From NCBI RefSeq assembly GCF_001949145.1, contig NW_019091356.1:2302932-2366931 (forward strand): DNA of 64,000 nucleotides, written 5' to 3'. A program made the position numbers and the translations under genes. Shown here one piece after another: positions 21,671 through 62,788 of this stretch (the stretch's first letter is position 1; the number at the start of each line of letters is the position of its first letter). The DNA comes from Acanthaster planci. Lineage: Eukaryota. The notes under the pieces were generated by a model. It did not search any database and was not told the origin of the DNA. It worked only from the letters and a program-made list of their open reading frames with translations.

Positions 21671-24600
21671 ATGGCACTGCACAATTACTGCAGACTTGGA
21701 GGACTGCCGGATGCCTGCAGTCGTGTTGCCTGTGATATGGAAGACTTTCCTGAGTTGCCTAAACTTGCAGATATCTTCAAGAATTGTACGTACATTCTGC
21801 ATATATATCATTTTCCTCCCTTCCATTCCTCCGTAGGTTTTAAAAGAGGTAAAGGCTTCTATCTCTCTGACCTGAAAAAAGATTTTAGAATGGGTGGGAG
21901 GGATGGGTGTGGCTCTCACTTTGAATCCGCCTCTGAGATTTTCAGACAATTTTCAATAAAAGTTGAAGAGTTTCAGATAAAACGACTATAAACCAATATT
22001 TGGTAAAGTTACTTGCCTAAAAATTGGTGAATATTAATTAAAACAATAAGCAGAAGTTTAGTTGGTCCATTCTATCACCAACAACTATCTCTGCTGATTC
22101 AAATAATCCTGGGGGGAAAAAAATCAAACATTGGCATAATGAATGCTTTCCGATAGCTTACATACACTTCTATATGTAATGTACTTTCAATAAAAGAGAT
22201 TGCGTAACTGGCAATAGGTGTTCTCATGCAGTGTAAATAAAAGTCCATGGTCGTTTGGTCTCCTGACTTCCCATTTGGCTTCCTGTTGATCGACAATCAA
22301 AACATGGCATCTTACATGGAAAAATACTGTGATGCTGGAGTACAGTGTTTTTTACTTGTCGCCATGTGGGACACGAAAGTGGATAAACAGGGCCTGTGGA
22401 AAATTATATGCACATGTCATCCTGGGTTTCAAATTTTACTTTCAAAAGAAAAGGAAATGATCATGCCTTGCACTGGTGTGAAAGTAGTGATGTGTGAAAA
22501 CAACCAACTGTGATACGTACACGTAACAAGGCCTAATACAGTTTGTTTGATTACTTTCTATTTGCCAACTTCCGTGAGTTTTTCATTCCACATTTTACTA
22601 AGGATGGGACGTGTACACGTTTAAACGAAAAAAAGTTTGAAATCCGTTTACAGTTTTTCGCCACCATTTAGACGGAACCGCCCCGTTTAGAGGTTGGACG
22701 TTTTTATTGATGCAATCTGGCGTTCATTTTTCATATTAAACGATGCTTGCAAAATGTAGTTTGATTTTCAGGACACTTTACTGCTCTGTCATTATCAAAG
22801 GAATACCATGAATTCATCACGGGAATTTTGTGTCAACTCTTTGCATTGTATACAATTTGTTGCGTTAAAAGTTTTTAGTGACACCGTGGTAAGGGTGGAA
22901 CGTTTACTCGTTTAAACAGTACGGGATAGTTTTCTAAACATTTTTCAAATCAAACGTAAATTCCCACCCTCGCATTTTACCCCAAAAGGGGGGTTGTTAA
23001 CGTGTCAGTGTGCTCTCGTGATAACACAAAGCTTTACTTGATCTTGCACAAAGACGAAAGTTTAAAGGAAGGCTCTGATAGAGGTACACTTCCAATGAAG
23101 AAACAGCACTAGAGTTCAGGATTTAACATACCACTTCCAGATATATGTAAAAATCCTTTCCAAAGTGTCAGTCTGTCACAGAATTAGTCCCCTGTTGAAT
23201 GTTTCCACGTTTTCCCTTTTTTGTTGAATGATACTATGAAAATACTAGTGGAATGTTTTTTCATTTTAACAGGTGACGTTCCTGGCCTAGAAGAAACCTG
23301 CTATGTGCTGTTTGTGTTGCTTATTATTCCCGTATCAGCTGGAGTTTTCTTCGCCGTGTAAGTGCTGCACAGTTCTTGAATATCAGTGATTGTCTCAGAG
23401 TTGTCGCGGGGTAATGCTGATTCACATGCTTTGGCCCAAAATCATTCCCCCAAACATTTGTGTACATGTATTGCGTGATCAGTTCACACCATGCGACGTA
23501 AGTAGTCAGTGCCCCTTCCTCGGCACACCACGCTTTTTTCCTTTCGTTTTCCCCACAAATCAGCATTTTCTGCCATGAGACTAGCTCTGTGAAATTTAGT
23601 CTGGGACAAATTTTATATGGTTTTTTTTTTTGGAACTTGAGAAATTATTCCTCATCTAGATGTTTGATATTTGACTAAAGCTGAGAGGCATTTTTTCCTG
23701 AAAGTTCAGGCTAAAGAACCACCCCTTAGAAAGATACAAACGCAATCTTATTGTTTACATTTTGTAGGGTTTTCCGTATTAGCATCCTAGCATGAGTGCA
23801 TGTGGATGCTTGCCCATGCATGACGCATGTACATGCCCGATCTTCTAGAGATCATGCATGGTCATGAATGAATAAGGCACACAATGGTTAGAGAGAATAA
23901 GCCTTTTGCGAGTTCAATTTGAGTAAAATCTGGCACACTGAGTTCTTTAAATTCTTGTGAACATAACGATTTTTTTCTTCACACTAAAAACACTGGTGCT
24001 ATACCTGGCGATTCGGGGCAAGCGTTTGCTTAGTTACATAAGACATGCCTTGCACCAATACACTGTTCTTAATGGATAAGAAGGGCACAAAGGAACCAGT
24101 TTATTCCAGAGATGGTGGTCGCTATGCAACAGCTTGCCCCGAATCACGAGGTATAGCAATAGTGTCTTAAGTCTGGGGAATTCAAATTGTTACGTTTCTG
24201 TGTAATTCAGTGTACCTGATTTTATTCAAATTTAACTCACAAATGGCTTATTGATCACTGGGGGAGGGAATTACATGAAACACACCCCCGCTCTGCTGTC
24301 GACTGACAGTTTACTTTTGTTGAACCATCATCATCTTCTGCCATTCATTGGAAGGGCAGAGCCAGACTTGCTGAGATAAGGCACGGAGAGTGGAGACCAC
24401 CCCACCCCCCCTCCCCAAAAAGTTTTGAACTCCAAAATGTGGAGTTGATGCAAGTTGAGTGGACTCCTTGATCTCGGTCTCACTCCTAAAGTTGGGATAT
24501 TCCCTTCTCAATCACACATACCCCCCTCAAGGACTTCATTGTGGGTACTAGCTACTCCCCACACCCATTTTCTGTATCCTGGCTCCGCCTCCTCAGTGTC

Positions 24601-25316
24601 TGATATGTCCGCACACTCTGTCATTTGCCTGGTGCTGTTTCGTTCTTTGACGCCGAAGTGGTGTGGAAAAGTCACTAACATTGCTAACATTTTAACTTCT
24701 GCAAAACATTTACCTAGCAGCCCTTTGCAAAACCCTTCACGGCGGCACCTGCCTAAATTGGTTTCAAAAGAACTGAAACCCCCAAATGGGTGTTCAAGGC
24801 TTCTCTTTCACTCTGCTGTTGTGTTTCAAATCTGCGCTTTGATGCAGTGCACAAAATTTACTATTTGATTCCAGTTTCAAGCAGATTTGAGGGCATCAGT
24901 AGCAGGTGGTCTTCCGTGGCTCTCGGAGTGCGTTTAAGCCTTTCACAAAAGATGCAGAATGATTCCACTTGCAGTAATGCAATGTTAGTGATGCAACATT
25001 GCCGCATTACAAGGTTTCATTACAAAGCTGGTGCTTGGGATACTCAGTAGGTCGTGCTGTCACTGGCTTGTTTTTTTTTCTTCCTCCCGCCCCTGTCCCC
25101 TTGGTTTTTTTTGTTGTTGTCACGTTTCTGTATCTTAGGTGGACTGTGCAGCGGGGTCGGGCCAAGTCATATCCAAATGCCAACCCGGCCAGCCATTCTC
25201 AGCCCTCCACGTCGTCGCTGGCCCCACTGCCAAATAATGGTGTGCCCCCCGCGTCCTCAGCAGGAGGCCTCGAATTGCAAGCCCGCGGTGAGGGCTCCAA
25301 ACCCGTCGCAGTTTGA
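21671..25316 (+). CDS. Paralogue A: uncharacterised small single-pass (type III-like) membrane protein, short isoform, 125 aa
   Basis: Exons 21671-21785 (MALHNYCRLGGLPDACSRVACDMEDFPELPKLADIFKN, phase 1), 23273-23357 (CDVPGLEETCYVLFVLLIIPVSAGVFFAV, TM, phase 2) and 25139-25316 (WTVQRGRAKSYPN...KPVAV*). GT-AG sites with consistent phases; in-frame upstream stop at 21494; ATG context agcactATGG. Confidence 0.75.
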
Positions 25317-27428
25317 CTGCGTCCCGGACTGCCTCCCGGATCAAAGTTTCTCGAGCCACCAAACACAACCGGCAGTTTGGTGTGCATTACCACGCTCTGG
25401 TTGAGGGTCTCAGACCAGCCTGCTTCGGCTGTCTCTTTTTTCACGCTCTACCTGCACTGGCCTGATTTTGGGCACACCGTCACACTTTTGCACTATCGGG
25501 GATCACGCTGTCTGTGCCTGCAAACTAATGACCACTGTGGGTGCCTCACACACATTTGAAATGAAATAGGGAAAGAGGTTGAACTGGCAACTTCTGACCA
25601 CGCTTCCAGTTTTCACAGTGGCAATGTAAAGGAGACTCTGACTCTTAAGCAGGGGCAGCCGCTACTTCTGTTCCAGTGTGTAATCCCTGTGCAAACATAA
25701 TGCCTAGGCTCTGGTAGTATCTCTGTGTACTTGCGGTTCCCACAAGGTTCCTTCAATGGTATTCAAGCACATTCTACAAAACAGTTCGAGCACAAGTAGA
25801 CAATTTTAGTTCCTAGAAGTTTTCTACGCTTGTCAGCAAACAGTGCCAGCAGGTACTGACATCACCTGACCATTCAGAATAATATGTACCAGTATGTCTG
25901 CGAAGATGTGAGATTAAAAGTACTTAAATTACAAAATACGTGTGAATCGGGCAGTGCTATATATATATATATGTAATTACAGGCCACTGTGGAACGTACA
26001 AAATGTAGAACCAATTTATTTTTCTTTAGTATCTGACACCAAGTGTGCAGCTGAATCTTGTCAGCAGTATGTGAAAAGAGCATCAGTTGGTTTTAAAAAG
26101 AGGGCGAGGTAATTGAGCGTCTGTACCAGTGTTATAGCTATGCCTGTCGGCGCCGGTCAGGGATCTCCACCATTGCAGTCTACCGTCCAGCACTAAGATT
26201 GATGAAACAGCCCCCTGACCGGCACAAAATTTCTTTAAAATCCCTGCAATAACATCAGTCACTATGAAAATTTCATGTTTTACCTGAAAGAATTAAAATG
26301 TGAACTCTTAAGCAATTTGGAAAAAGTGATCTAGAGTCCCCTAAGGTGGGCCCCTGGACCCCGGGCTGTGATTTGCGAGACTGCAATCGTTTCGCTACCC
26401 TCTGTTCGCCATTACTTAAATTGTCCTGCACCAATATATGGCTGGCTATAAGACTGGTCTGAACAAAACATTTTTTTTTTAAGGAAGAAAAAGAACCAAT
26501 TTTAATAAAAACCATTATTTTTCTATGAATATTCTCTTTAAACCTAACCTCTTCAACCAATTCTCTTTTTTTGGGGGGGGGGCTTCCCAAATCTGGCAAG
26601 ATACAGTGAATAATTTAGCTTAGTCACACTTTAAACCTCCAAAACAACAAAAGAAAACCCACCATAAAATGATGAGGAAATGAAGCCCCAGGTGAAAATT
26701 AACAGCCGAGTCAGACAGTACGTATCAGCAGGCACATTGAGGTGGTTTTATTTCTAATTAAAGATCCTAAGTACCATTATCTTCACAAAAAGGCAACGTA
26801 GCCTGTCCCTTTGTAAACTAGAGGTGTATCCTTTTTCTATCAGCATATGTATTCATATGTTCATGTACAATTCAGACACTGGAACCTCTGTATTATGATT
26901 TACAGGTATAAATGTAACCTTAACTTCAATCCTGAGCCCCTCCCCCCACCCATCAGTCTACCCCCATTCTAACCCTATTTCTTGCCCTAAAATCCTCCGT
27001 TTTCTTAACTTCACATACATGTAGTCTAATTGCATCTGTGTATTGAGTATTCACAGTGCTGGAACAGAATCTCGCCACACTTGTTAATTCCAAATTGAAG
27101 GCTTCACTGCACGTGGTTGGCATTTGCATGTTCTTTCGCCCACACTGACATTTGAGAGTACAACAGCCAACACAAGCACATAAACATCATAATTATTCAC
27201 GGTGGAAACCGAGGCATATGATACGTCTATGGCCTCGCCCCACACTGCTGTGTATACATTCAGTGAAATGTTCCTGTGTACATAAAAACAGAAGATGCCG
27301 AGTTACTGCACGTTAGATTCACGTGCAGTTATTTTCTGAGTATCAAGTTCCGTGTTCTAAATTATTATAAATTGATATATAACATTTGTATGTTGCTCAT
27401 ACCGTTTTCATTCTACCTAGTATTAATG

Positions 27429-27487
27429 TTAACCCTAACACTCCTCAATCCTTCACCTGTTGGAGGACTGAGGAGTGTTAGGGTTAA
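27429..27487. mobile_element. 59-bp TTAA-flanked hairpin mini-MITE (piggyBac-like ends), copy 1
   Basis: TTAA-CCCTAACACTCCTCAATCCTTCA...TGGAGGACTGAGGAGTGTTAGGG-TTAA; near-identical copies at 49835 and 62817. Confidence 0.75.
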
Positions 27488-28326
27488 TTATGTTCATTGG
27501 CGGCGTGCTTCTTCAGAGCAAAATGCAGTTTCCTGTTTCTTCATTCTCTTCAACAATCAAGCGCATCCATACCGTATGTCTTGCTTGTTTTGCATTTTGT
27601 TGCTTTGTGACTTGAGCATTCCATTTCCATGCTTAAACTCCCCCGTGAAAACCCTGTCGGCTTTACATTGAAAGTACGAGATCGCACCATGGATTTATGT
27701 CGATATCCCTGCATAATTCACTCATAGTATTTAATACTAATGTGTAACTTGTGTATGCTACAAAAATAGTCTAATAATACAGTATATAGAATAGAATCCA
27801 AGAGAGTTACCACAGAAAGACCTGTACTTGCTTTGCATTATGGGAAAATTATCAACATACACACTGTAACATGTATTTCATTTGCACAAATCCTGTTTTG
27901 TGTTTTTACTAATGTCTGGATGTCCATGATCTAAGTTTGCTTTTATTAGAATAATGACAGGCTCATTTCCAGAGGCTTACAAATGCACCTGTTGCTGCGT
28001 TACTGATCCATGATCCATGTCAAAACGTAATTCTGTCTGCAGTGAGCTTCTTACGGGTCGTAATAGCTGTAAAACTCCCATGAAAATCTGAACAGTGGAG
28101 TTCCACTATTTTAGGGTTATGAAGTTACCTACTTCAGCCTGCTTTTGGGATGGCAGGTCCCATATTTTTTATAGCCATTGTTCATGCTTAGAGAGCATTT
28201 GGTTAATACGTGATCATAAAAAAGCATGGCTTGGATATCACAGTTGAATAAAAATGTGGAAGTAAGCTGGAAGAAATAGAGTTAGCTGCAACAAACTTTT
28301 TCTGCCGTTGTCATTCATTTTGCCAG

Positions 28327-28609
28327 GCGTTTTTATATTCGTCCGTCACTTAAAGGATATGAAGAAATTAAACCAGGCAATGAAGCAACTTCACAAGAAC
28401 TAGCCCCGCTGAACACCTCACGCACTGAACCCGTAACGGAAGCTTCTGCCATGATCGAAACGGAAACCAAGGGAAGTTTGTCCAAAGCGGCCAGTGAGGG
28501 CCGCGAGGGTGGTGCCACCGCCATGGACAGTGGAGAGACTATGGTAGGAGCAGGGAGCAAGACTGGGGACGTGAGCCCCGCAGTTGAAGCTAAACTCCAC
28601 CCTGCATAA
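28327..28609 (+). CDS. Alternative or additional terminal cytoplasmic exon of paralogue A (RFYIRPSLKGYEEIKPGNE...KLHPA*)
   Basis: Open 283-nt frame after acceptor ttttgccag| (phase 2, matches the TM-exon donor). A second acceptor at 28355 (phase 1) matches the internal donor CGCG|gtgagg at 25287. Acidic, small-residue tail with YEEI resembles the other paralogue tails. Confidence 0.6.
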
Positions 28610-29463
28610 TGGACAAATTTCAAGTCTGCTCCTCTCATTCAGACGTTGCTAAGTTGCCATGACTTTCAGACATTGCCACGAGGAATGCTCACAGGATTTG
28701 CAAATGTTGGCATTGTCTGCATGAGACGGCAACACAGCTAGACAGTGGAGGTGACAGTCCTGGGTTGGTGAGAGTTGATGTACATATAAGTGGAAAGTCC
28801 TCCGGAGCAAGGCCGCATCTGAAGTTGGTCAGTTGTCTAAGACTTTGGCTTTCATTGGAGTGCTGTGTAGTTCCAAGATTGCATTTTGTCTTGCATTGAA
28901 CAGTTTATTAAAATGCCCATTTTTATACCTACTTTTTTGACAGTTTGCTGAGAATTTTGAGACAAACATCAGCAGCCACTTGAAATCATAGTACATAGTT
29001 CAAACAGCTAAATTGACTTAAATCAATATCGTTTGCGAGGGAGCTGATTCTAACCCTGTCTGTCCAACCAATGGCAACGATTTTTCCTAAACAGATGGTT
29101 TCCATTTCCTGTTTGTTATCCCTTTGTGTATGTGTCAGAAATGTCACATTGATTATTTACACATTGCCGTTGTTCGGCACCACACGAGGATGAAAACTGA
29201 TTGCATGCAATTGTTCGCAACATGAGTTACATTCTGAGTCTTGTTTTGGCTTTTTTTTCCCTTTTTTTTTTAACGTAAAGTAGATATTTGGCACTTTCGA
29301 GTAGTGTCCTGTTGCACAAGCATGAAATGAAGTGGAAGATGGATCTTGTTTGTCTCTGGACATTATCTGAAGTGGGCTTGATTGAAGATGGGTTCAGTAG
29401 CAGAAGGGAGTATTAATTCTTGCCACCCTAACCCCCCCTCCCCGGGCACTTAAATACTAAAAA

Positions 29464-29478
29464 NNNNNNNNNNNNNNN
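29464..29478. other. Assembly gap (15 N)
   Basis: Run of n characters. Confidence 1.
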
Positions 29479-32400
29479 TTTCAAAATTTCATTTCCATTC
29501 TTTCTTCTAACGTGTTAAAAGCCCCCCCCCCCCCCGAAAGTAACCTTAACCTCCAGAAAAGCCATAAGAGGCAATACATTAATGAAGCAAAAATATTATT
29601 ATTGCACAAAAACAAAGGATTCAGAGAAATGATAAGAGATTGGTCAGTCCCAAATCTGTAAGCTTGTTTTCGTGCATCCTTCAAATGTGCATGATGTCAT
29701 CTTCTCTGTATAAGATGGGATGAAAGGATTGCAGTGAAAAACAAATTACAGAAAGATATACTTGCAGTTTTATAAAGATCTGTTGGCAATTGAATTCAAC
29801 TCTTTTCTTTCAGCTCTCCAAAATTTATTAAATCCTTAATCCTATGTTTGTCAGTTGAAGTTGTGTAAAATGGTTTGTAATAGTCATGTGATGCACTTCA
29901 AAAGTGGTGGTGAAATCGATGTTTAAATTAAAACAGGTGTAGTTTTTGACCCTGTGGGTCATGGAGGGGACATCTAAACACCTCTCCTCAGAAAAATTTA
30001 CTTGCTCATCTACTGAGACAGTTTATTGTCATTTTTTTGGAATGTTGACAAAGTTTCATTGTTTTTTAGTAGTGTTAGTCGGTGCTAAGCACGAGTCCAG
30101 GGCACATACATGTATATGAAGTATAGCAGCCTTGTGTGCTTTGCAACTATACACCTAGCTAACGATCATAGTATGAATGTCTTGAAAGGAGACAAGAAAG
30201 AAGATTTTTATGACTAGAATTCATGTAGGGAAGCTTTCTTGCAGCATTGTGGTAAAAGGAAAAAAAACTTCAAATTTTGGTTTTATGCACATTAAAATGT
30301 CCATATTTATGACTGCATGATGTCATCTATAGCTCTGTGTACATATATAGGTCACACTTTTCTGCATTTTTGGACTACGTTTCTCTTTTTACTCATTTAT
30401 CGCATTAAGGATCTTGTTTGAACAATAGTAATGGCCAATATTTCTTCAAAACCTTGTCGAGGGGTAATTGCAAAGGACAAATTTATTTTTGTACTTTTTT
30501 CTCGTGCTCTTGTGACAAGTAATGCTGTGTGTAACAACAGAGAATAGGGCCCTGTCAATGTATTGATGAAAGGATTTCCCAAGAATGGAAACAAATTCCC
30601 ACCTTCTTGACACTTTTCATGAAAAGAAGTATTTAGATCTTGTTTTGTTTTGTAACATAGTAATATGTCTGAAAGAAGTTCAGCTGAACTGAACTCTAAG
30701 GAGGGGCGGAGAAGCCCCCCCCCCAATGCCATTTGTTTTGTCATTATGTTTTTAATTGAGAGTGCCGGTTCTTTGAAAAAAAGTAGCACTGTACTTCCTT
30801 TCTTTAGGATTATTTGTACAATTTGGGGAATAATTTGTAGAGAAAAAAATCCCAGTTGCACTGCATACGCCATCGGCAATATTGGTAAAAAGGTAAGGAA
30901 TGCGTAGATGTAGAAATAGTTTTCATATATTAGACTGGTCGGTACTTGTCTTTATCATCATGGGCATCTGTTTAACTTGCAAGTTGAATCTGTTCTTTAA
31001 ATAATTATTGTGTTATAAAAAAATGTGCAATATTCTTTCTTTGTGCATGTGCCGACGCTGAGCCGGGATCCAAGATACCTTTCCATTAAAAAAGAATGCG
31101 TGCACGTGAAGCTAAGAATGTTTGATGTCATGGGTGACCTTTTCTCATTCTTTTTGCCTCAGAGTTTTAAAAAGCTTAGCAGAATGTTTCTGTTGGAACG
31201 GGCTCCTCACTATCAATGTTTCCTGTGTGTTGTCTTGTTCCACTTTTCTCGTGTCCTTTTTATTCACCTGCCAAAAAAATTAATAACAATAATAATGCAG
31301 GGGTGCGAGAATTCAGCTTTTTTAGCTGATTTCCGCTTTTTGGTTTATATGTTGACCTTGAATGTCAGCTTTTTTGTACACCTGGTCTGGGCAAAAGTAT
31401 TAGAACTTTTTACATTTCAGCTTTTTGGTAACTGTTTTTGGCTTTGATTTTAACAGGCCACTCACATCCCCGATAATGATAATCAATTACCACTTCGGCA
31501 AACTGCTCTTTGCCCAATTACTGTTGTGCAGTTTTGACTCCAACTTCCCTTTTTGGTATTGTTTTTATGTAGACCCTCCCGTTGTGATTAGGATTGGACA
31601 ACGAAAGTCATTTCTGATTCCCCCCCGGCAAATTTGCAATTTGTCGACTGTTTTGTGGCCTGTGAGGGCGCTGTTGAAGTAGTGGCCAACTAGATGCACC
31701 CGTACTGTCCCTGGAGTTTTCTAAATATCGGCTACGCCAGCGGTCGGCGCGGGCTACAGGTGCACGAATTTAGGCCCCTGAGTTAACGTCAGCCCAGTGG
31801 AGTTCAGCTTATTGCTATAGGAAGATCAATACGATTTCCAGCTTCAGGATACTTGCTACTGCGCCAGCAGTAAATATGTGAAACTCGTGGAACACCGAGA
31901 CGAACCGGATTGAGCAAAGCCACGATTTTAAAAAGGGCTGATGGCCTTTCATTTGTTTCTGGGCCGTAACTGCCGCCCTTCTTGCCAAGTGTCGGCAAAC
32001 GGGCGGCCGTGGCAACAACCCGATGCTGCCCGTAGTGATTTTCATTGGATCATACATGAGGCTTTACCAAAGTAGTTCTTACTTCAGATCCTGACCCCTT
32101 TCAAAATAGCAGGCATAAGATACCCATTGAAATGAATGAACTAGGGCGACTGTATCCCTCAACTGTACAGAAAAAAAGAGCCTCAAAGTCTAATTCATTT
32201 TTTTAATTCATAGTTTTGTACGAAGTTCGCTTATTTAAATATGGTACACCTGACCAAGAAACATAAGGTGCTAAATCTTGTTGCCGTACTTACAAATAAA
32301 AGAAAATGTCGACTTTGTCTTCACTGTTGAGTAAAATTATGCCGATTCATTACTGTTGACTTGACTCGGCATAAAAAAAATTGGCCCCATAAAAGGTTAG

Positions 32401-35012
32401 GTAGTCCCATATCAAGCTTGCCGTCTGTGTCATCGAAGTAGTTCATGGAACGAGAAACAAACAGGTGGAGAACTATATAAACTAGAATCTACCCACAGAC
32501 TGGAATAGCTCAAACTTGGCTGTTTTGCGGGTGTCCTTTTCGTGTGTATCTTGAACTTACGTCGAAACCATGATTCCGGAAGTAGCTCAAATAACTTCTC
32601 CCTATTTCTCACTGCATACTTCCAACCTGTGTTTCAGTCATGGCATTCATTCAATCTCATACACCCCCAAGCACCTATCACGCCATTTCGTATACCGAAT
32701 CAAATGTCTCCCGGGCCGAATGGTGTAAATTTGTGCCTGGCAGGAGTGGATGATGGGCATGACTCGAATTGCCAGTGAAATATTGACCAGCCACACAAAT
32801 TCGAAACTGAGCGGATGGGGTGTGGGTTGCTAGTCACCATACGAAACTGTAAAGGGTCAGTGTTCATGACACCGTAATGATGGACATCTTGTGCAGTCTT
32901 TTGCCCCTTACATCAACACCCGACGTGTACTTTATCGTGTTGGGTGCAGGGCCGCTATCCGTGCTAGATAATATCTTTAGTCCAAAGGCCTACATGAACT
33001 TTGAAACTGTCGGCGCGTCGGGCCTGGTACGGGGATTTCCCCCAATAAATATATGTATACAACTGATTATTGATTGCGCAACGGACAGTTATGGACGAGT
33101 TCTGTGTACGCATTAAAAAAAAAAAAGTAGTGAAGTCAGCAACGATAATGGTTTCGAGGCCAGCAGATGTGATCGGCAAATCAAACTGTCTTTAAAATAA
33201 CCCTTACAGCTTACTTCCCTCGTGTTTATATTGGTTCATCACATCTGCCTGTCCGTCGTCAGAGTGGATGGCTGAACTCCACATAGGCCTAATAATTCGA
33301 TTTTATTATTTCATGCCCATTTTTGGGGGGGTCATTACCGAAGTGTGACGAAGCCGGCACGTCACTATTAAAACCTAACATAATAGGCCCCTCTATGAAG
33401 AGATTATGGGGACAGTCTTTGTTGGAATCGAGGGCCATTCGGTGGCAGCTAGCATCCTGCAGTGCAGACACCATGAGGCCGTCCTCGCCTTAAGGGCGCA
33501 CTGCCCAATTCAAGGGGAATTCTTCAGCAGGATGAGGCGCTCAAAAAGTACCCGTACATTTTATTTGACAAAGAGGAGAATTTGTGGCCCAAGAATTTGT
33601 GGGATTGTGGAAGAATGGCCTAGAATGAACTTTCTAGATTCAAGGGCTCCCATTCTACGGCAAAGCATAAACAAATGCTACTGAAAAATTGTCCCAAGAG
33701 CCTAACAAGGTGGAGGGATGTCATTTGAAAAATGGCCGCAGACAGACTTGGGAACGTTCACTTTTTGGGAGGTGAGTTTTTTTTGGTGGATAATTTAAAA
33801 TTTCATCGGTTAACCTACTAAAAATTGAAAATCAATTGAGAGCTGAATGACCCCAGAACACTTTGTTTTTTTGTTTGAGAGGCCTGTGAGGGACTTCGGT
33901 TGCCCGCACCGGGGCTGCAAACGTGGTCGATTTTACATTGTCTTCAATTGGGCTTCAGTTTCAGTGCACCCCTAGGGGGTTATTAATGGGTTGTCGACAG
34001 TCAAAGGTTAAGCAGACCCACCCATGCAGGCCACAGGTCACGAGCACATGCCTCATGGTTGTGCATAATGCGCGCTACAGTCCCCAAATGTTGTTGTCCC
34101 CAGCGGTAGGCCTGCATACCTGCAATTGTTTTAAAGGAGGAAACACTTTCCACATAAAACATGAATCCTTTTTAAAAATGTTCTCCGAAGTTCAATACAG
34201 TCGCAGTCTTACCTAAATGGGGTCAGGGAGAAATACATGTGGATAGAAGGGTCGGCATCCTTGTACATTTACCAAATGTTGATTTGTGACGAATTCAAAT
34301 AAACTCGGTGAGGCAACATCACCTTAATTAAACTATTGGCTACTAATGGTTCTGTCAATAATCCAGAGCTACCAATATTTTAAATAGCAGTACATGCACT
34401 TTGGATTAATTTTTGGCCGATCAACAGGGTCACCCACATTGCATGCTCAATTTAGTGATATTGAAGTGCAGATTAGAGATAACCGGGGAACAACACGGCG
34501 TGTTGGATGTATTCTATTTAAGGGTGGGAGCTCTGAACTTGAAGACCCTTACGTGACTGATTCACATAGCTCCGTGATCACATGTTCGCGAGTAGCTCAC
34601 AAGAACATGAGTCTACGGTGGCGAGGAGCAGGAAAATACACCCGCAGGGATAGGTGAAGCTACAGCCATTTACCCGATGAGCCCTTTGAAGAAGATAACC
34701 AAGTGTGGGTGTAGTTTATGGTCCAGTTTAGTTTGCGTAGGATTAACAGAGATTTCACCATACAGCAAGGAAACCAAGTTTAAATCCAGTGAAAAATTGT
34801 GTTTTGTCTCTGGATTCGTTGACGAGCTGCCGTCATCGACCTAGCTCTAGCCGGTTTGGGAGCCAACCATCGATTAAAAGCGACTTTGAAGTAGTGTAGG
34901 CTCACCTCGTTCATGCCGGCTGCATCACGTTTGTGAAGAAACAACCTGAAAGATCTAGTCGTAATATCTATTAGCACACACGCATCCGCTTCCAAAAAAG
35001 ACAGAGGCAGAC

Positions 35013-36602
35013 ATGGCAGACAACACAATCTGCGTTTCTGCCCCTGCTGTGATCGAGGGTAGATGTTCGTGCCGCAGTTGCAACGTGAGCAACCCTGAGC
35101 CAAGATGGAAATTGCCGCCGCTGCTGCCCGATATTTCTGAGTACAGATGCATGCAATCGTATGGTATGTAAGACTCACTAATTTTTTTCTCCAACATCCT
35201 TTGCATTCAGGGATGGTTTAATTAAACGCGTGGAGATTAAATAGTTGGTGGGTGGATGACAGTAGTAAATAGATGAAAGTTCAGCAGATATGAGATGTCT
35301 TGCTAGTAGGATGGATGCGTGAATGAGTGATGGATTTGGGCCAAGCGAGGGTCAAAATTCGTAGAGATGTATTCGGAATACACAAGTCCTCTTTATCGGT
35401 TGGCCAGCGAGTTTGTTTTTCTTTTCGCTTTTTTAAATGTCAGGTAGAGTTATAGTTGTATTGCTAGTGAATTTGACAATTATCCAGTTATTGCATCTTT
35501 GTATATTCCTTAATTCATGACACGCTTCTTTCTTATTCTTCCATAATCAGTATATAAAAACATTACTCCGTGCTGCGCACCCATTCCCATTACCACGACC
35601 ACCGGAGTACCAAAGAGGACGACACCTGTCAGTGTCACTAGCCCGTTGACCAACCAGACTGATCATGGGACCATCACCTCATCAAGGTCCACACCCCCCG
35701 ATGTTTTGACCGCACTCCCGTCCTTCACTACACCCTTCGATGCAGGCCCTCCTTTGCTGTACCTACTGTCTCTTCTACTGATTCTTCCTGTTGCAGTCGC
35801 CATATACCTAATGCAAGTATTCTTAGGCAGTGGATAAACAATTGTGTTTGACTGATCGATCGTTGGAGTAATCAGTGATTGATCAATAAATCGGTCCCCT
35901 GGTCAATTTAATCAATCAGTCAATTCACCAAAAAATCAAGCAAGCAATCAATGTCACAGGAGATCAGTTTCATGTAGAAAATAAGTCCAGACAATCAATA
36001 AATATATCAAAATAACCTGATGATGTTCTAAAGAAAGTCTTCAACAAGTTTGTTTGGTTTAGAATATTCACTTTGTTAATGTTGAGTGTCATCCTTGGTG
36101 TTTGTTGGTTTATTGGTGCACATTTATGTTTCGTTTTCCTTTTCATGCACATAAGTTCCATCGTATGGCTCCATGTCTTTATTATGAAACAACAGTCACT
36201 TCCATACACGTCTCACATAGGCCCACTGGTATTATTTCATTTTATGCTAGTTGGCGATATTGCCAACCTAAGGAAAAACAAGATGACGATGATGCTGACA
36301 GCTCGTCGAACTCACAAGAATTGACGAAACCAGCCTGTGATGTTTCCTACGCAAACGAGAAGGCAGAACACACGATACCAGAGCCATCGATCCCAGCCAC
36401 TCCAGACCACTCGGTGCGCGCCACCCAAACTAACCAGTCTGGGAACGAGGATGAGGGCGGAAACGTCGGGCTCGGGGAAGAAAGTGAATCCATCCCTTGG
36501 GAGGAGGTTGTACAAATGGTGGATGTGCCTGCCGGGGAGACCACAGAATCGGATGAAGACGAAACAGGAGAAGAGGCCCAAGATGAGTCATCATGGCTGT
36601 AG
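35013..36602 (+). CDS. Paralogue B: uncharacterised single-pass membrane protein, 254 aa
   Basis: Exons 35013-35163 (MADNTICVSAPAVIEGRCSCRSCNVSNPEPRWKLPPLLPDISEYRCMQSY), 35551-35812 (YKNITPCCAP, Thr/Pro stalk, TM LLYLLSLLLILPVAVAIYLI; GC donor) and 36251-36602 (WRYCQPKEK...ESSWL*). Phases 1 and 2; upstream in-frame stop at 34962; exon 1 is clearly homologous to paralogue C. Confidence 0.8.
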
Positions 36603-38716: not shown

Positions 38717-41700
38717 ATGGCGAATGATACATGGTGCATTCAGGTACCAGTGATCCTTGGGAATATCTCGGTCTGCCGCGGTTGCAACGTCACTCACACT
38801 GAGGAATATGTGAAGCCGCCCGAGCTGCCGGATCTTTCGAAATACAAGAGCAAGTGTACGCAATGGCCCCGCGGTATGTTACACTTGCCCAAATTCTCTG
38901 CTTATTTAATTTTTTTCGAGAATTTTGATTTAGGGCCTACTCTCCTTTTAAAATTTTGTCTACACTGGCAGCAGCCCTGTTGCCAGCTTCAGAAATTAAG
39001 GGGGCACAGCATCAGATAGGGAGCTACATAACAAGAACAAAACATTTGTATGCTTATGCTGTTTAACTGATGGGGGACAGCTTCTCACCGGGTGGTAGGC
39101 CCCATCAGGGCCCCCTTGGCGACGGGCCCGACTGACAGGTATCAGTTGATTCCAGTATTTGGAATGGTGTAAAAGTTGGATGTCAAAAGTATATTGAAAA
39201 AGTATTCACGGGGGACACCAATGGTTTGTCCAGGAATGGATGAAGGGTGGATGAAGGGATGGGCCAAAAACTCCGGACAATTATTCATTGGGAAGCTAAT
39301 TGCTAACATTTTTACATAAGCCTTCATAGTTTCGGAAATTGGTCAATTATAACGGGTCCGACTTCATGATAAACATTAGTTTTGGTTCATGCACCGATAA
39401 TGAAAGCATTTCTTTTTTGTTATCCCTTCAGCCCATCCGTGTTGCGAACCTTGCCCTACAACCACTGAACCACCAACTTCCACAGGTACCAGCCTATGCA
39501 TTGTCTACGTTTAACCCACTGAAACTCAAACCGATAATTTGCCTACCACCTCACTGTGTAATCAAGTCTGTCTTTTTTTTCAATCAGGCTTTTTCTCTGT
39601 ATCTAGTTTTGCTTGTGATTCCCAGCCACTTCCTGATCTTACTCCCATTATAGATGATCATTCTGTATATTCGCAGATTACTGAGGACTGAACCGTGGGC
39701 GATTTAGGGTGAAAATGGTTAATAGGTTCTGAAAAAGATTAAGTCATCGAAACAATACATCCATTTGAAAGAAGAAATTACACTCTCACCTGTGTTATCG
39801 TATTGCTATAGTTTAAATTGGAGGGAATGAATGGATAACAAAGTGTAAGCAAATAAAAAAAGTAAGCAATTACACCAATGAATAAATGAATTAACATCCA
39901 CATCCATATTGTCGAGCGATACCATAACTCTACCTTTGACTACAACTGTTGCGATGGCAGCAGTTGTTAAAACAATTTCTACTGTAAAAATGTTTCTTAC
40001 AGCCGTCGCTTAACAGCAACGGATACAATCATTACCGCCGCAACAGGTACAACCATTATAGGTACGACCATTGCCACTGCAATAGGTACAACCATAACCA
40101 CCGCAACAGGTACAACCATTGTAGGTACGACCATAACCACCGCAACAGGTATAACCATTATAGGTACAACCATTGCCACTGCAATAGGTACAACCACAAC
40201 CAACGCAACAGGTACAACTTTAAGCACCGCAACAGGTACAACCTTAACCACCGCAACAGGTACAACCTTTATAGGTACAACCATTGCCACTGCAATAGGT
40301 ACGACCATCAATGGCACAACGGGATTCACCCCAGGCGGCACTATTACATCTACGGTTACTCCTCAAGTTCTTCCTAATGTTACTTGGATGTATTCGCTTT
40401 TCACATTGCTTGGATTCATGGTCTTCCTAGCCATCATTAATTGGCGTAGAGCGTAAGTGCTTCGTCCTGGTATTGGAATTATGGTCAGACATTTTTAGTG
40501 TTGGATAGAGCTGGAATTAGGTTTTTGTTGAGAAAAAAATGGCTCTCAAAACGTAACAGTGTTGTTTAAAAACTACATTCCAGTCCGAGTTTACAGAAAA
40601 TAGAAGGCGTAGAACGTAGAGCGTAGCAGTGTTGTTTAAAAACTGCATTCCAGTCCGAGTTTACAGAAAATAGAAGGCATGGAAATATATCCATATCTTG
40701 ACAATAGACTGCGCCACACGCATGACAGCTTTTGTACACAGAGGCCCACACGGGTAAAACTGGGGAATCACCAATGACGCATATTCATCAGAGGGATGGA
40801 GCATTCAGCGAAGCGTGCATGTTCATGCGGCGCCATTATACCGACGTCATTTTCCTCGTCCCTTGTTCCTGGGCAGTGTCTTCCAATGACCTGTTAAAAA
40901 GAAATGTGGTCATGAAAAGGCTCAGCACTTACAACAAGTTGAACCTTCCGGGAAAAGTTTAACCCCGTACCCATGCGTTGGCAGTCAATGGTACAAGGCT
41001 TATCTATCGTTTCATTCAAGGAAATGATTTGCAGTTTCTCCGTCTGTTGCTCATTCTAAAACGTTGCTTGCCAAAGAAAAAAAACGAAAAGTAGCTTTCA
41101 TATACAGACAACACTGTGCGTAAAAACCTATTCGCTTGAGAACTACAGCTCCCTCAAACGGTCAAATCTTTTAAACATTTTAAGATTCATCATTTGTGTG
41201 TATTTTCTTTGTTTGCTCGTTTAAGTTCTTCTTTTTTTTTAATAGTCGTCGAGTTTCAAAAGCCACCCAAAAGAAAGACGACCAGATTTTACTTGTCTAC
41301 CCTCCGAATCCGTCATCCAAGAAGTAAGAAACAACATTTTAGGAATTCCGTTTTACAACAAATGTATTGTTTTTAAAAAAAGTCAATCTCTACAGCCCTA
41401 ATGATGTTTTAGTGTTGTGTTTGTAAACCACAAAGTAATGAAAAGTAGCTTATCCAAGTATTGACTGGGTGACATGTTTTTTTGGGGGGGGGGCTCACAG
41501 CTGGTCTTCTTACCTTAACAATATGCTCCCTTCCTGGAAGGGAACTGTGCGACGTACACTGTTCCAATCATCTTTCAGAGAAGTGTATGAAAACAATCAG
41601 CGACTCTTTTTTCAATGACCCCCTTTTGATCAGTGCTTGTGTGTTGACAAGGATGATTTACCTTCAACATGTATTTGTGCATACGCAGCTACAACCACGT

Positions 41701-42189
41701 CGTGTTTTATTATGAAAGTGTTGTGACTCACAAGACAAAAAGAAGTATACATCTCAGTTCTTGTCACCTCTAACGCGTGACACCAAAACTCTCGTTTGTT
41801 GATGACGGTAACATGAGTGAATGAATGGTTTTCGCAGGCTTATTACTTTCAGGATGTTGGTCATACAAGAAAGCCTTTTGATCTTTATTCATTGTGTTGC
41901 CTGCAGGTATTACAGATTGCGTTTCGGCACGTCAAAACCCTCCCCTGTTCCAGACAGTCCACCAGCCCAGAAAAACCCGGCTTTCGAAAACGATTACGAG
42001 AAGGAGCCCACCCACCCTATGATGGAGTCGACAGCCCCGGCCAACAATCAGGGTTACGTGAGCAATGTCGAGGATGAAACTGGCGGGTCGGACAAGGACT
42101 TTGGAGACGCCAGTCTGGCAAGGGTTAAGCTCCAACCTGATCCGAATGAAAAGAAGTCTTCGGAGAAGATGAAAGGTGAGGATAATTAG
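38717..42189 (+). CDS. Paralogue C: uncharacterised single-pass membrane protein with mucin-like Thr stalk, 309 aa
   Basis: Exons 38717-38873 (MANDTWCIQVPVILGNISVCRGCNVTHTEEYVKPPELPDLSKYKSKCTQWPR), 39432-39485 (AHPCCEPCPTTTEPPTST), 40017-40452 (GTT repeats, TM WMYSLFTLLGFMVFLAIINW) and 41907-42189 (YYRLRFG...KGEDN*). Phases 1, 1, 2. Confidence 0.8.
40017..40330 (+). repeat. Coding minisatellite of interleaved 24-nt (GTTITTAT-type) and 15-nt (GTTII-type) units in the paralogue C stalk
   Basis: Recurrent ggtacaaccattgccactgcaata, ggtacaaccataaccaccgcaaca and ggtacaaccattata units, all in frame. Confidence 0.9.
40557..40678. repeat. Local tandem duplication, period ~70 bp, intronic
   Basis: cagtgttgtttaaaaact(a/g)cattccagtccgagtttacagaaaatagaaggc occurs twice. 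Confidence 0.9.
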
Positions 42190-44977: not shown

Positions 44978-46389
44978 ATGGCGTTCCATGCATACACAAA
45001 CCCCGCAGACAGGAGGCCATGCATCCGCAGCATGTCTGCTGGGTCTGGTCAGAGCAGCGGCAAAGTCCCGTGTTCATGTAGCGACAAGGAAGTTGATGCG
45101 TTACCCAAACTGCCCTCCATTCCTAGCTGGCTCTGCACTGGTGGTATGTACTTTCTTTTTCACGGAGAATGTTTTGTTAATTTTCACACTGAATGCAAAT
45201 GGGTATTCATGACATACATCGACCTTATGCACTTTTTCCGTCTTGTTTTCTGAGACCCTATTAAAGGCGTCGGTACTCATACTGTAACTTAATGCACTCG
45301 ATTTTGAGGTTAGTGATTTAAAATTGTATTTTAAAGATTACAAAGGAAGAATATACAAAATTAACTGATTTTTAAAACTATTTTTAGGAAACAATTTTCC
45401 CTGTAATTAAAAATTGATAGATACAGTTTTTAAATTCTAAAACGTCTCGATTCATAAAATCTTACACATATTCTTTAGGAATTAAAAACAGAAAGTTAGA
45501 ATTTTAAAAGGGAGACAGAATTATTTTAAAATGTCTCATCTGCCCAGTCCACGCCTCTATGCTTTGTAAAAGCAGGATTCTTATAGACAAAAGGGCATTA
45601 AATTTCTCATTAATTTTGTCTCAAACTTGAGTACATGGCCTACTTTTAAAAGATACCGCAACCATGATACTACATGGCGGTGATGATTTGTTTAACTTAA
45701 AAAAAAAGGCAATTTTTTTATTATAAATAGGTAAATGTACTGGCAACCTGACAACCATTTCCCCACTCGTCACCTCGACCGTCACCACCCTGGTGACTTT
45801 GACCCCTCCTCCAGCTCTCGATTCCTGTAGTTGGGTGTGGTGCCTGTTCCTGTTGCTTCTCCCGTTGTCTGCTGTCGTCACGTACAGCGTGTAAGTCTTG
45901 AGTTTGAGAATTTTGAAGATCAGCGATGTAAAAATAAATACTGCAGCCCCGCAACGCATCGTCCCACGCAAGGGTGGCTGTTGAATTCAAGTTGAGAAGT
46001 ACTGCGTTTTTATGTTTCCTTAAGTGGCTTAGAGTGCTGTCCGGTGTATTATTTGGTGTTTCCACCCTCTTGCCAGGTACAAATACAGTTTTCCGTCTCC
46101 TGTAACTTCCAAGACGTCAAACAATGTCGATGAAGACTCTGCAGATCCACTCTCCGACACTGTCTTGAGGTATGAAGAGCTACCGGTAGTCATCCCGTTG
46201 ACAAATTCGCGTTACGCAAGCAATGCAGAGGACGTAACTGGGACGCACGGGGCCGGAGACGCGGCGAGCGGACAGTTAAACCCCGAGGAGGCAGACGAAT
46301 TCAGCCCCGAGGCAGAGACTGAAGAGGCTGCAAAAATTCTCGGGGGAAAAGTTGATACCAAAGATGTGGACTGTTCTTCTGCCTCCTGA
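44978..46389 (+). CDS. Paralogue D: uncharacterised single-pass membrane protein, 212 aa
   Basis: Exons 44978-45143 (MAFHAYTNPADRRPCIRSMSAGSGQSSGKVPCSCSDKEVDALPKLPSIPSWLCTG), 45731-45890 (GKCTGNLTT..., TM WVWCLFLLLLPLSAVVTYSV) and 46077-46389 (YKYSFPSP...RYEELP...RYASNAEDVTG...CSSAS*). Phases 1 and 2; upstream in-frame stop at 44954; AATAAA at ~47002. Confidence 0.8.
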
Positions 46390-48858: not shown

Positions 48859-51294
48859 ATGTCCGCATACAATGTTCCCTGCCTGGCAGTGCCTGCAGAG
48901 AAGGTTTGCCGAGACATCGAATGTAGCAGCCCACCACCACCGCTGCCAGCACCACCACCAAAGTGTAATGTATACTGACATTTTTTTCTGTACAATTTGT
49001 TGGTGCTTAGCTTTTTGAGTGGTTAACTTCGTGTTTTCTCGTGGTGAAAACAAGATATATTTTAGCACCATTTCATAAATCATATATTTAACAGAGAAAC
49101 ATTTTTAATTACTCCCATTTCTAGGCATGGTGGAGTGCCCATCCTGGTTGTGGTATCTTTTCCTGCTATTAGTTCCCGTTGTTATAGCCAGCGTGTGTGC
49201 AATACTGTAAGTCTTGTGTTGGCTAATCTTAGCCACAATGCTGCCAAGATTGAACTTGGAAAGCATTAGTTTATGTATTGGTTTCTGGTCAAATTTCCAA
49301 GGTTTGGGCTTGTCTGCTTGTTGTTGAGGGGGGCAGATTTGCATTGCAGCCAGTAACCATGTACTTGATTAATATGTGTGGTTACTTTAAGCTAATTAAC
49401 TTCCTTCAGTCAGTTTGGGGCTGCATCTTCTACCGTCAATTCACTTCCAACTTCTTTTCGAACAATTCTTACAAGCTTTTCTAGGGAGCATTTCATTATT
49501 TATCTGAAAGAATATTATCTAAGTAAATAAAAAGATTTTGTTGGTAGCAAGTCCAACTTTACACATGTCAACAAGACACAGGACACTTATGATTGCGTTC
49601 TCTTTTATAATTCATATATCTGGTATCTTTGTTCTTTTTGTATCATTGACAACTATCAGTTTAATAGTCTATGTACCTATTTATGTATTAAGTCTATTTA
49701 ATGTGAAACACTATGTTAATCAACTGCATCACTGAACAGCAGTCTGGGTGCTCCGTTACCGGAGGATTCTGTCTCCTCTGGATGTCACCCCCATTTTGCA
49801 CCTACTTTTTTTTTTACATGTAACAAGTTATAACTTAACCCTAACCCTCCTCAATCCTTCACGTGTTGGAGGATTGAGGAGGGTTAGGGTTAAAGAACTT
49901 ACCAATATACTTTATCAATGTAATTTTGTGATTGTTACAAAATGGAAATAAAACGCCAAACCAAACTGTATGACCGATTTTATGCGCAAGTCGTAATTTA
50001 GTAGTCAAGTTGCATAAATATTAATTTCTGTGTTAAGGAATACTTTGTGTTCGGCTGGTGGTGCCAACCAGGTCATTGTGAAAATTATATCGACATTCCG
50101 TCTGTCTGTCAATTCTCTCCTTCCCCCCTCATTACTAACACATTGAGATGCTGTCTTTCTATTCTTAGGTATCGCAGGAGAAGACGGCCGGGAAAGAGTG
50201 ACGATGTTGGTTCGGGTTCATGCGCTCGCTATCCTCCCGTTGCTCAATCTAAAAGGTGAGCGGCTTTACGTGTGATCACGCTGGTGTCTGTCACTCGTAC
50301 ACAAATGACAAAGATCCACCATGCCTCATTTGCTGGAAAATGGAGGCGAAGTCTTATCTTCACGGGTCCAACATGATGACAGCTTTGTTGATGTCAATTT
50401 TCTGAGTATTTGCTGGCCCCCCAAAAAATATTGTATTAACCTCGATCTTAGATTATCTCTGGAAATATAATTTGTCGATCAAAGGTAAATATTCTTCCAT
50501 ATTAAGGGAAATAATGGGGATTGTACAATTCGATTGAAACGTGTTAACGAAGGATTTTGCTACGACCTATGAATTCATTATTTTACTGGCCCAATGAACT
50601 AATCTTCAGGCATAGATTTCAGAGTACGTATCCCACAGTGCGTTTCATTTGTATTATTTTTTGTAGTAAGAAATATAGTTTCAACTTCCTGGCGTCACGC
50701 CCCAAATCAAAGGGAAAACCAGATGAAGAGAGAGTGGCTGGGGAAGACCCACATCGTGAGACCAATGCCAGAGCCTCTCAAGAGCAGTCGGGTCCTTCAG
50801 GGGCCACGGCTACCACTAGCAGTCCACAGCGCTCGTCGCACACCACAGAGAATGAAAGGAAGAGGTCTGGAAGCAAGACTGGAAAGGTAAGTCCGGAGGG
50901 AGAGGTCACGAGCAGGCCAGCCAGTGCCACCAACAATGCCCGAGTAAGGTCTCAGCCGCAAGGACCCAGCGAGAATGGTGCAAAGGCGAGCAACATGAAA
51001 CAGGGTGCGGCAGAAACCCCAAAGTTGAAGAAAGTGCCCAATGAGAAGAGGGAATTAAACAACGCCAGCAGAAAGGCACCAGCTGCCAGTAACGTCAAAC
51101 CAAGCGAGGCCAAACCCCCCGACTTAAAGAAAGTGCCCGACGAGAAGAGGGAATTGAACAACAGCAGCAGAAAGGCACCAGCTGCCAGTAATGTCAAACC
51201 AAGCGAGGCCAACCCCCCCGACTTAAAGAAAGTGCCCGACGAGAAGAGGGAATGGAACAACAGCAGCAGAAAGGCACCAGCTGCAAAGAAGTAG
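48859..51294 (+). CDS. Paralogue E: uncharacterised single-pass membrane protein with polyproline ectodomain and 33-aa tail repeats, ~300 aa
   Basis: Exons 48859-48964 (MSAYNVPCLAVPAEKVCRDIECSSPPPPLPAPPPK), 49125-49206 (CMVECPSWLWYLFLLLVPVVIASVCAIL), 50169-50255 (YRRRRRPGKSDDVGSGSCARYPPVAQSK) and 50667 (or 50679)-51294. Phases 1, 2, 2; upstream in-frame stop at 48823; AATAAA at 52778. Confidence 0.8.
49835..49893. mobile_element. 59-bp TTAA-flanked hairpin mini-MITE, copy 2
   Basis: TTAA-CCCTAACCCTCCTCAATCCTTCA...TGGAGGATTGAGGAGGGTTAGGG-TTAA. Confidence 0.75.
51025..51285 (+). repeat. 99-bp (33-aa) coding tandem repeat, ~2.6 copies, in the paralogue E tail
   Basis: Units start at 51025, 51124 and 51223: LKKVP(N/D)EKRE(L/W)NN(A/S)SRKAPAASNVKPSEA(K/N)PPD. 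Confidence 0.95.
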
Positions 51295-62649: not shown

Positions 62650-62788
62650 CTTAAATTACACAAGCAAAGGAGGGGGGTAGGGAAGACAAAATGCCATTTT
62701 TTTTAGAAAGTCCAGAACTTTTCCAATGAAACAAGACTACTGGTAAATGCAAGGGCAAAATAACTTTTACTCATTGGTAATGGAAATA

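What the first reader, a model, noticed from the sequence alone, without database searches (positions are those of the whole stretch)
21671..51294. Hidden five-gene tandem array of an unassigned family of signal-peptide-less single-pass membrane proteins between SMAD4 and cyclin T
Seen in sequence: five same-strand genes, fragmented in the ORF track, share one exon plan. Each has an ATG exon encoding C...C-x(1-4)-C...P-x-L-P (PELPKL, PLLPDI, PELPDL, PKLPSI, PPLPAP) followed by a Cys, a phase-1 intron, a TM exon, a phase-2 intron at the end of the helix, and a disordered tail. The TM cores are YVLFVLLIIPV, YLLSLLLILPV, YSLFTLLGFMV, WCLFLLLLPL and WYLFLLLVPV. Four ATGs have nearby upstream in-frame stops, C has no upstream in-frame ATG, and none has a hydrophobic leader. 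N-glycosylation sequons (NVS, NIT, NDT, NIS, NVT, NLT) and Thr stalks lie before the TM, basic residues after it. Inference: N-out type III proteins, old duplicates with little DNA identity left, keeping a conserved disulfide/PxLP head and TM while varying stalk length (almost none to >120 aa) and tail. This suits a diversified receptor, adaptor or anchoring-subunit system. I recognise no family for it.
Basis: partly seen in the sequence, partly recalled or inferred. Interest (0 to 1): 0.9.

Follow-up and report, generated by a model that had tools for sequence, protein, structure and literature searches.

The report
Starfish leaderless membrane protein gene array

Summary
The array is real. 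It lies in Acanthaster planci between SMAD4 and cyclin T. RNA reads span all 13 coding introns of the five genes. Each gene has a phase-1 intron after a Cys/PxLP head exon and a phase-2 intron at the end of one transmembrane helix. None has a leader.

It is less hidden than claimed: four genes are RefSeq models identical to mine. Gene B, with a GC-AG intron, was absent from the library searched. Pfam and PDB give no family. An exhaustive profile search found one credible outside relative, the Patiria miniata orthologue of gene A. It keeps all five cysteines and an alternative tail ending KPVAV.

New details: gene C sets stalk length by choosing among 13 in-frame acceptors in a Thr repeat. Gene E has a polyproline head like cholinesterase anchors. 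The paralogues differ in expression.

Best reading (inferred, about 0.45): non-catalytic surface tethers or co-receptors. Verdict: a new, so far sea-star-only family of a known kind (type III single-pass proteins), function untested.

The parts
21671..28609 (+). Gene A (LOC110975865, 160 aa): exons 21671-21785, 23273-23357, 28327-28609; 48-aa ectodomain with 5 Cys, no stalk
   Evidence: Junction reads; equals P0005; Patiria orthologue P0007, 44% identity
25139..25316 (+). Alternative last exon of gene A (phase-2 acceptor), tail ending KPVAV
   Evidence: 54% identical over 52 aa to the tail of Patiria isoform X2 P0008, E 6e-14; frame fits; read depth 0.4-4.2 in the bin, junction not among the joints shown (84 joints not shown)
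28610..31500 (+). Long 3' UTR of gene A (end approximate)
   Evidence: Continuous read depth to the bin ending 31579
35013..36602 (+). Gene B (254 aa): exons 35013-35163, 35551-35812, 36251-36602; second intron is GC-AG; tail ends SSWL
   Evidence: 87 and 60 junction reads; translation; not returned or 69 although its head (and, its TM) were in the query
38717..42189 (+). Gene C (LOC110976606, 278 and 241 aa): exons 38717-38873, 39432-39485, 40188 (or 40299)-40452, 41246-41323, 41907-42189
   Evidence: Junction reads; equals P0003 and P0002
39997..40344 (+). Thr-rich tandem repeat straddling intron 2 and exon 3 of gene C; 13 in-frame AG|GT acceptor-like sites (40047-40299), two seen in use
   Evidence: junctions to 40188 (81 reads) and 40299 (3 reads); both are RefSeq isoforms
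44978..46389 (+). Gene D (LOC110976618, 212 aa): exons 44978-45143, 45731-45890, 46077-46389
   Evidence: 65 and 59 junction reads; equals P0004
48859..51294 (+). [quoted passage not shown]
   Evidence: Junction reads; equals P0006
7157..14931 (-). SMAD4 MH1-coding exons (left flank; the gene runs on below this range)
   Evidence: Pfam MH1; best PDB match human Smad4 MH1, E 6.6e-43
58029..64000 (-). Cyclin T gene, 3' part (right flank)
   Evidence: ORFs; neighbour gbr.80.38 annotated cyclin-T2 next to gbr.80.39 (gene E) in PMC11093393 supplement; cyclin box not tested here

Best explanation
The five genes are expressed tandem paralogues encoding leaderless single-pass membrane proteins that likely sit N-terminus-out at the cell surface and likely act as non-catalytic tethers or co-receptors, with a predicted disulfide-held Cys/PxLP head binding an extracellular partner protein. 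Shown: transcription, splicing, absence of a leader, one hydrophobic helix, and conservation of A's cysteines, helix and two alternative tails in Patiria. Inferred: the helix serves as a reverse signal anchor (the EMC/Sec61 route described for type III proteins in PMC8249459). A glycosylated Thr/Pro stalk would set the height of the head (none in A and E, about 30-75 aa in B, C and D, adjustable by splicing in C). The disordered tail would decide sorting and scaffolding, through Tyr-x-x-hydrophobic motifs or a PDZ-type C-terminus (KPVAV in A's alternative tail, SSWL in B; motif classes recalled). Duplication then gave tissue-specific versions.
For: Cys almost confined to the N-terminal part (30/435 vs 4/668) and 9 of 16 ectodomain Asn in sequons vs 7 of 37 tail Asn. 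Basic residues after the helix in A, C, D, E. A vs Patiria: head 51%, TM 47%, main tail 40%, alternative tail 58% identical; all five ectodomain Cys and the PxLP-helix segment kept. Stalk length varies between paralogues and between isoforms of C, which fits a head that reaches outward rather than one fixed against a neighbouring membrane protein. No catalytic domain in any tail. Expression differs: B is highest in run X14, C and D in X21. In the PMC11093393 supplements A is up in oral tissues, the D-like model in aboral tissues, and E in papulae and summer radial nerve.
Against: No partner, location or topology has been measured. Head models are low-confidence, so a folded disulfide domain is unshown. 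The heads differ in Cys spacing, so they may not share one job. A's YEEI motif is lost in Patiria. B has net charge -2 in the 15 residues after the helix. A and E lack ectodomain sequons. Only one outside orthologue was found, so conservation rests on two species.
Confidence: 0.45

Rival explanations
1. Auxiliary subunits of a multi-pass channel, transporter or receptor (KCNE/FXYD/RAMP-like role, recalled): the helix and juxtamembrane head pack against the partner and tune its trafficking or gating.
For: The TM has sequence-specific features: L-[FS]-x-L-L in all five and a mid-helix Pro in A, B, D, E and Patiria A; TM pairs score z up to 6.8; A and E have almost no stalk.
Against: Stalks of 30-75 aa in B, C, D and splice-variable stalk in C break a fixed head-to-helix geometry; C lacks the mid-helix Pro; no Pfam match to such families.
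Confidence: 0.2
2. PRiMA-like anchors: the proline stretch, at least in E, threads through the tetramerisation helices of a T-type cholinesterase, upstream Cys bond to it, and the helix holds the enzyme at the membrane.
For: E has three Cys, then 8 Pro in 10 residues, then Cys and TM. The ColQ attachment domain is LLTPPPPPLFPPPFF, with adjacent Cys bonding to AChE in ColQ and PRiMA (bioRxiv 10.1101/431288, passages). PRIMA1 appeared in both Atlas lists at 0.76. E is up in summer radial nerve.
Against: Atlas scores under 0.8 are chance level. No PF16101 hit at E up to 10. PRiMA has a signal peptide (PMC4554443). The other heads have only 2-4 Pro per 10 residues. GPI-anchored H forms are widespread in invertebrate AChEs (PMC3045457). 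Whether sea stars have a T-type enzyme was not tested.
Confidence: 0.12
3. Transmembrane adaptor proteins (LAT/PAG/LIME/SIT-like): ligand-less scaffolds whose tail tyrosines are phosphorylated and recruit SH2 proteins.
For: Leaderless type III build; Yxx[ILV] motifs in A, C, D, E; N-termini of 48 and 43 aa in A and E fit the 5-50 aa criterion of PMC2194115.
Against: No CxxC after the helix; only one such motif per tail; A's YEEI is not kept in Patiria while the ectodomain Cys are; B, C and D have 90-135 aa ectodomains; Pfam SIT hit E 0.28 covers only the TM.
Confidence: 0.08
4. Highly diverged type III TNF receptors (BCMA/BAFF-R-like single cysteine-rich module) that bind TNF-type ligands and recruit TRAFs.
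For: Type III topology as in BCMA (PMC8249459). B and C have C-x12-C-x2-C spacing, the spacing I recall for the TNFR A1 module.
Against: A, D and E lack that spacing; no Pfam TNFR-type hit and no PDB sequence hit; loose TRAF-like motifs are not shared between A and Patiria A; no TNFR among the 7 hits.
Confidence: 0.07
5. Opposite (type II, N-in) topology: the Cys bind metal or are acylated, and PxLP is a cytosolic SH3-type ligand.
For: A 90-135 aa N-terminus must be translocated without a leader in B, C and D; E has five tail sequons and none in its head.
Against: Positive charges follow the helix (+7 in C, +4 in E); C has six sequons before the helix and none after; Thr-rich stalks precede the helix; the conserved KPVAV end fits a cytosolic C-terminus.
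Confidence: 0.05

Closest known systems
Type III single-pass membrane proteins as a class (glycophorin C, SMAGP, BCMA, synaptotagmin 1; PMC8249459)
   Same: No leader, one helix, predicted N-out, N-glycan sites before the helix in B, C, D
   Different: No sequence relation found; ectodomains up to 135 aa with their own Cys/PxLP head; tandem array with splice-variable stalk
PRiMA / PRIMA1 (Pfam PF16101)
   Same: Order Cys cluster, proline stretch, TM, short basic tail start; closest in gene E
   Different: PRiMA has a signal peptide and a long polyproline run; no Pfam hit; four of five paralogues lack polyproline
Type III TNF receptors (BCMA; BAFF-R, TACI recalled)
   Same: Leaderless, small Cys-rich head, disordered tail; C-x12-C-x2-C in B and C (reference spacing recalled)
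   Different: No profile match; spacing absent in A, D, E; no conserved TRAF motif
Transmembrane adaptor proteins (LIME, PAG, LAT, SIT; PMC2194115)
   Same: Leaderless, non-catalytic, Yxx[ILV] in four tails
   Different: No CxxC; larger, conserved Cys ectodomain; tyrosine motif of A not conserved
Patiria miniata LOC119729891 (XP_038058616.1, XP_038058617.1), uncharacterized
   Same: Orthologue of gene A: same length, five ectodomain Cys, both alternative tails
   Different: No Patiria counterpart of B-E was returned; synteny could not be checked

Membership tests
Type III single-pass membrane protein (class) | No N-terminal signal peptide | tested here: met
   No hydrophobic leader, upstream in-frame stops without ATG; RefSeq starts agree; SignalP itself not run
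Type III single-pass membrane protein (class) | One TM helix | tested here: met
   Best 19-residue hydropathy 1.98-2.68; helix 44-77 is the only confident part of the model of A
Type III single-pass membrane protein (class) | N-terminus outside, shown experimentally | not testable with these tools
   Predicted from charges, Cys and sequons only
PRiMA | Cleaved signal peptide | tested here: not met
   Present in PRIMA1 (PMC4554443); absent in 5 of 5
PRiMA | Polyproline attachment domain preceded by Cys | tested here: inconclusive
   Met in E only (8 of 10 Pro); 2-4 of 10 in A-D and Patiria A
PRiMA | Match to Pfam PF16101 | tested here: not met
   No hit at E up to 10 for 5 Acanthaster and 2 Patiria proteins (filters drop most matches above 0.1); Atlas 0.76 is chance level
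PRiMA | Binds the tetramerisation domain of a T-type cholinesterase | not testable with these tools
Type III TNF receptors | Cysteine-rich module spacing C-x12-C-x2-C (recalled) | tested here: inconclusive
   Present in B and C, absent in A, D, E
Type III TNF receptors | Profile match to TNFR-type Pfam families or PDB chains | tested here: not met
Type III TNF receptors | TNFR module fold | tested here: inconclusive
   Head models pLDDT about 45-50; Foldseek no match at E 0.001
Transmembrane adaptor proteins | N-terminal peptide of 5-50 aa | tested here: inconclusive
   Met in A (48) and E (43), not in B, C, D
Transmembrane adaptor proteins | CxxC within 4 residues after the helix (raft subgroup) | tested here: not met
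   0 of 5
Transmembrane adaptor proteins | Conserved Yxx[ILV] motifs in the tail | tested here: inconclusive
   One each in A, C, D, E, none in B; A's motif lost in Patiria

The most novel reading that the evidence does not exclude
Sea stars have their own family of leaderless membrane anchors that capture extracellular enzymes through a cysteine-flanked proline helix. Gene E is an invertebrate counterpart of PRiMA for tetrameric cholinesterase, and its paralogues were retuned to other cargo, with reach adjusted by a repeat made of splice acceptors.
Probability: 0.1. Interest if true: 0.7.

Novelty: new member of a known kind. Interest (0 to 1): 0.38.

Why it matters
It defines a family that the databases list as unrelated uncharacterized proteins, one of them under a misleading compositional name (BASP1-like), and adds a gene missing from the protein library searched. 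The family offers tissue-specific, apparently sea-star-restricted surface proteins in a major coral predator. Two features are of wider interest: a stalk whose length is chosen among in-frame acceptors built into a tandem repeat, and a conserved switch between two cytoplasmic tails. If E binds cholinesterase, it would supply a PRiMA-like anchor outside vertebrates (that none is known there is recalled; the relevant paper could not be read).

Tried and rejected
No whole genome was held, so synteny in other echinoderms and copies elsewhere in this genome were not tested.
Word-index protein searches: A1 heads, 5 hits among 1031 candidates, all Acanthaster; A residues 1-85, only itself among 6; A plus Patiria, 3 among 1815, none new. 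One search missed the 44%-identical Patiria orthologue, so these blanks are weak.
The seventh hit (P0009, a fish Ig-domain protein, E 7.9e-4) was dropped: it has a signal peptide, and the match covers the TM and flanks only.
Pfam, NCBIfam and PDB sequences: nothing above curated cut-offs.
ESM Atlas: best scores 0.77-0.78, chance level.
AlphaFold: A mean pLDDT 50, C head 51; Foldseek no match (111).
Homodimer prediction for A 1-75: no verdict, score 0.01.
The search for related loci could not use the alignment. A phage tblastn with a SMAD4 exon was empty and irrelevant.
The head+TM leave-one-out test was not used as proof, because shuffling also destroys the helix.
The hydrophobic stretch at about 25050-25138 is not a sixth TM exon: it is the pyrimidine tract of A's alternative acceptor.
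An LRR N-cap resemblance of the A and D heads (recalled pattern) had no Pfam support.
Literature: no paper names the six LOC/XP ids searched in full text. Supplements of PMC10448888 and PMC9759900 had no hit. In PMC11093393 file 11 was not searched and file 8 was cut, so data on B and C may lie there. Three look-ups for two papers on PRiMA assembly and invertebrate AChE were not held. Earlier scan findings held nothing for this genome or these sequences; one unrelated fungal array came up by words.
Full report
Source and flanks. The window is from the crown-of-thorns starfish Acanthaster planci, by the names of identical proteins. SMAD4 lies to the left on the minus strand (Pfam MH1; best PDB match human Smad4 MH1). 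The gene to the right is annotated cyclin-T2 as the neighbour of gene E in a published table; I did not test its cyclin box. No whole genome was available.

The genes are real. I laid 4 of the 9 raw-read RNA runs listed (3 studies, 18-24% of each run read). All 13 coding introns carry junction reads: A 40 and 51, B 87 and 60; C 101, 81, 86 and 111, D 65 and 59, E 134, 111 and 181. The spliced frames give proteins of 160, 254, 278, 212 and 300 aa. A, C, D and E equal RefSeq proteins letter for letter. B's second intron is GC-AG. B was not returned by the word search or by the exhaustive profile search, although its head and TM were in that query, so it appears to be missing from these collections. 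No joint links neighbouring genes in the complete list for C-E, apart from one 7-read backward joint; the list for A-B was truncated.

Anatomy. In 5 of 5 genes a phase-1 intron follows the head exon and a phase-2 intron closes the helix. Heads carry 3-4 Cys around a P-x-L-P motif. In A-D the motif continues as P-x-L-P-x-[LI] towards a further Cys. There is no hydrophobic leader, and no ATG before the next upstream in-frame stop. Cys make up 30 of 435 ectodomain residues and 4 of 668 tail residues. Sequons use 9 of 16 ectodomain Asn and 7 of 37 tail Asn, five of the latter in E (that count left out C's sixth sequon at the boundary, listed). Net charge in the 15 residues after the helix is +2, -2, +7, +2 and +4. 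This predicts N-out topology, weakest for B by charge and for A and E by sequons.

Are they one family? B and C heads are clearly homologous (z 15.6; 72% DNA identity over 76 nt). In leave-one-out head tests, shuffles reached the real score 0 times for B, C and D, 9 of 962 for A, and 635 of 1000 for E. A profile of A plus its Patiria orthologue scored D at 3 of 972, E at 25 of 987, C at 26 of 980 and B at 246 of 988. Tails link A with E (z 4.0) and C with D (z 4.0), and TMs link D with E (z 6.8). With the shared intron phases and tandem position, common origin is likely, least firmly for E's head. No sixth copy lies in the window.

Range. An HMMER search of 1.84 billion representatives returned 7 proteins at E up to 0.001. 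Four are the Acanthaster proteins, two are isoforms of one Patiria miniata gene, and one is a fish Ig protein that I dropped as a TM-only match. The Patiria gene is the orthologue of A (44% identity) and keeps all five ectodomain Cys. Nothing came from other echinoderms. This may reflect fast change or missing annotation, since short divergent heads score near the limit.

New features. (1) Patiria isoform X2 ends in a tail that matches window 25139-25316 (54% over 52 aa, E 6e-14). So gene A has two alternative last exons in both species, and the one ending KPVAV is the better conserved (58% vs 40%). Its junction was not among the joints shown; depth there is 0.4-4.2. (2) C's Thr repeat holds 13 in-frame AG|GT sites. 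Two are used (81 and 3 reads), and both are RefSeq isoforms, giving ectodomains of 135 and 98 aa. Repeat-length alleles could mimic part of this. (3) E has 8 Pro in 10 residues after three Cys. (4) Expression differs by paralogue. In PMC11093393 (supplement rows and main-text passages seen), gbr.80.42 (A) is up in oral tissues, gbr.80.40 (D-like, 341 aa model) in aboral tissues, and gbr.80.39 (E) in papulae and summer radial nerve. A row named like E in PMC11957666 (oki.2.153, supplement row) shows expression in all tissues listed and about threefold more in reproductive spines; its mapping to E rests on the name only.

Mechanism. Transcription, splicing, leaderless single-helix build and conservation in one other sea star are shown. 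The rest is inferred. The helix would insert as a reverse signal anchor, as described for type III proteins (PMC8249459, passages). The conserved Cys/PxLP head would be oxidised and bind a protein partner outside the cell. The stalk would set its height, and the tail would set location through tyrosine or PDZ-type motifs (classes recalled). Variable stalks favour an outward-reaching head over a fixed auxiliary-subunit interface. Loss of A's YEEI in Patiria argues against a phosphotyrosine adaptor as the core role. I put this tether/co-receptor reading at 0.45, auxiliary subunit at 0.2, PRiMA-like anchor at 0.12, adaptor at 0.08, TNF receptor at 0.07 and inverted topology at 0.05.

Comparison with known families. 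Pfam, NCBIfam and PDB sequence searches give no family. Atlas neighbours score 0.75-0.78, which is chance level. Models of the heads are unreliable. PRiMA is the closest architectural analogue for E: polyproline and adjacent Cys bind cholinesterase tetramers (bioRxiv 10.1101/431288, passages). But PRiMA has a signal peptide (PMC4554443, passages), and invertebrate AChEs are often GPI-anchored (PMC3045457, passages). Adaptor criteria from PMC2194115 (passages) are only partly met. I file the array in none of these families.

Print status. A full-text search for six LOC/XP ids found 0 papers. Searches on starfish transcriptomes, type III adaptors in echinoderms and cholinesterase anchors (listings only unless named above) showed no description of the family. 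Subscription papers and unsearched supplements could hold one.

Verdict. A real, expressed, undescribed family of leaderless single-pass proteins, so far known only from two sea stars. Lineage-restricted arrays of small surface proteins are common in animal genomes (general knowledge), and four members are already annotated, so interest is moderate: 0.38.

Noticed in passing
window 27429-27487, 49835-49893, 62817-62875: Three copies of a 59-nt palindromic element with telomere-like TTAACCCTAA/TTAGGGTTAA ends. Thousands of RNA reads match it with unrelated flanks, so it is a high-copy dispersed hairpin repeat, perhaps a very short MITE.
   Followed up: partly
window 23900-24253: Intronic inverted-repeat element (arms 23975-24033 and 24122-24180) with depth near 170 from reads of other loci; likely a high-copy MITE.
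   Followed up: no
window 35813-36250: GC-AG intron in gene B, used by 60 reads; read-through of the weak donor would end the protein nine codons later, leaving almost no tail.
   Followed up: partly
window 50986-51282: Three 99-nt (33-aa) repeats in E's tail, the likely source of its 'BASP1-like' RefSeq name.
   Followed up: partly
window 58619-61723: One open frame of 1034 codons in the cyclin T gene, a very long low-complexity C-terminal exon; no Pfam match.
   Followed up: no
window 33392-33995: Reads with many differences pile up here between genes A and B; probably a repeat, not examined.
   Followed up: no
window 57206-57347 and 63330-63551: A pair of inverted repeat copies about 6 kb apart around the long cyclin T exon.
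   Followed up: no
window 29464-29478: A 15-base N gap inside gene A's long 3' UTR.
   Followed up: no
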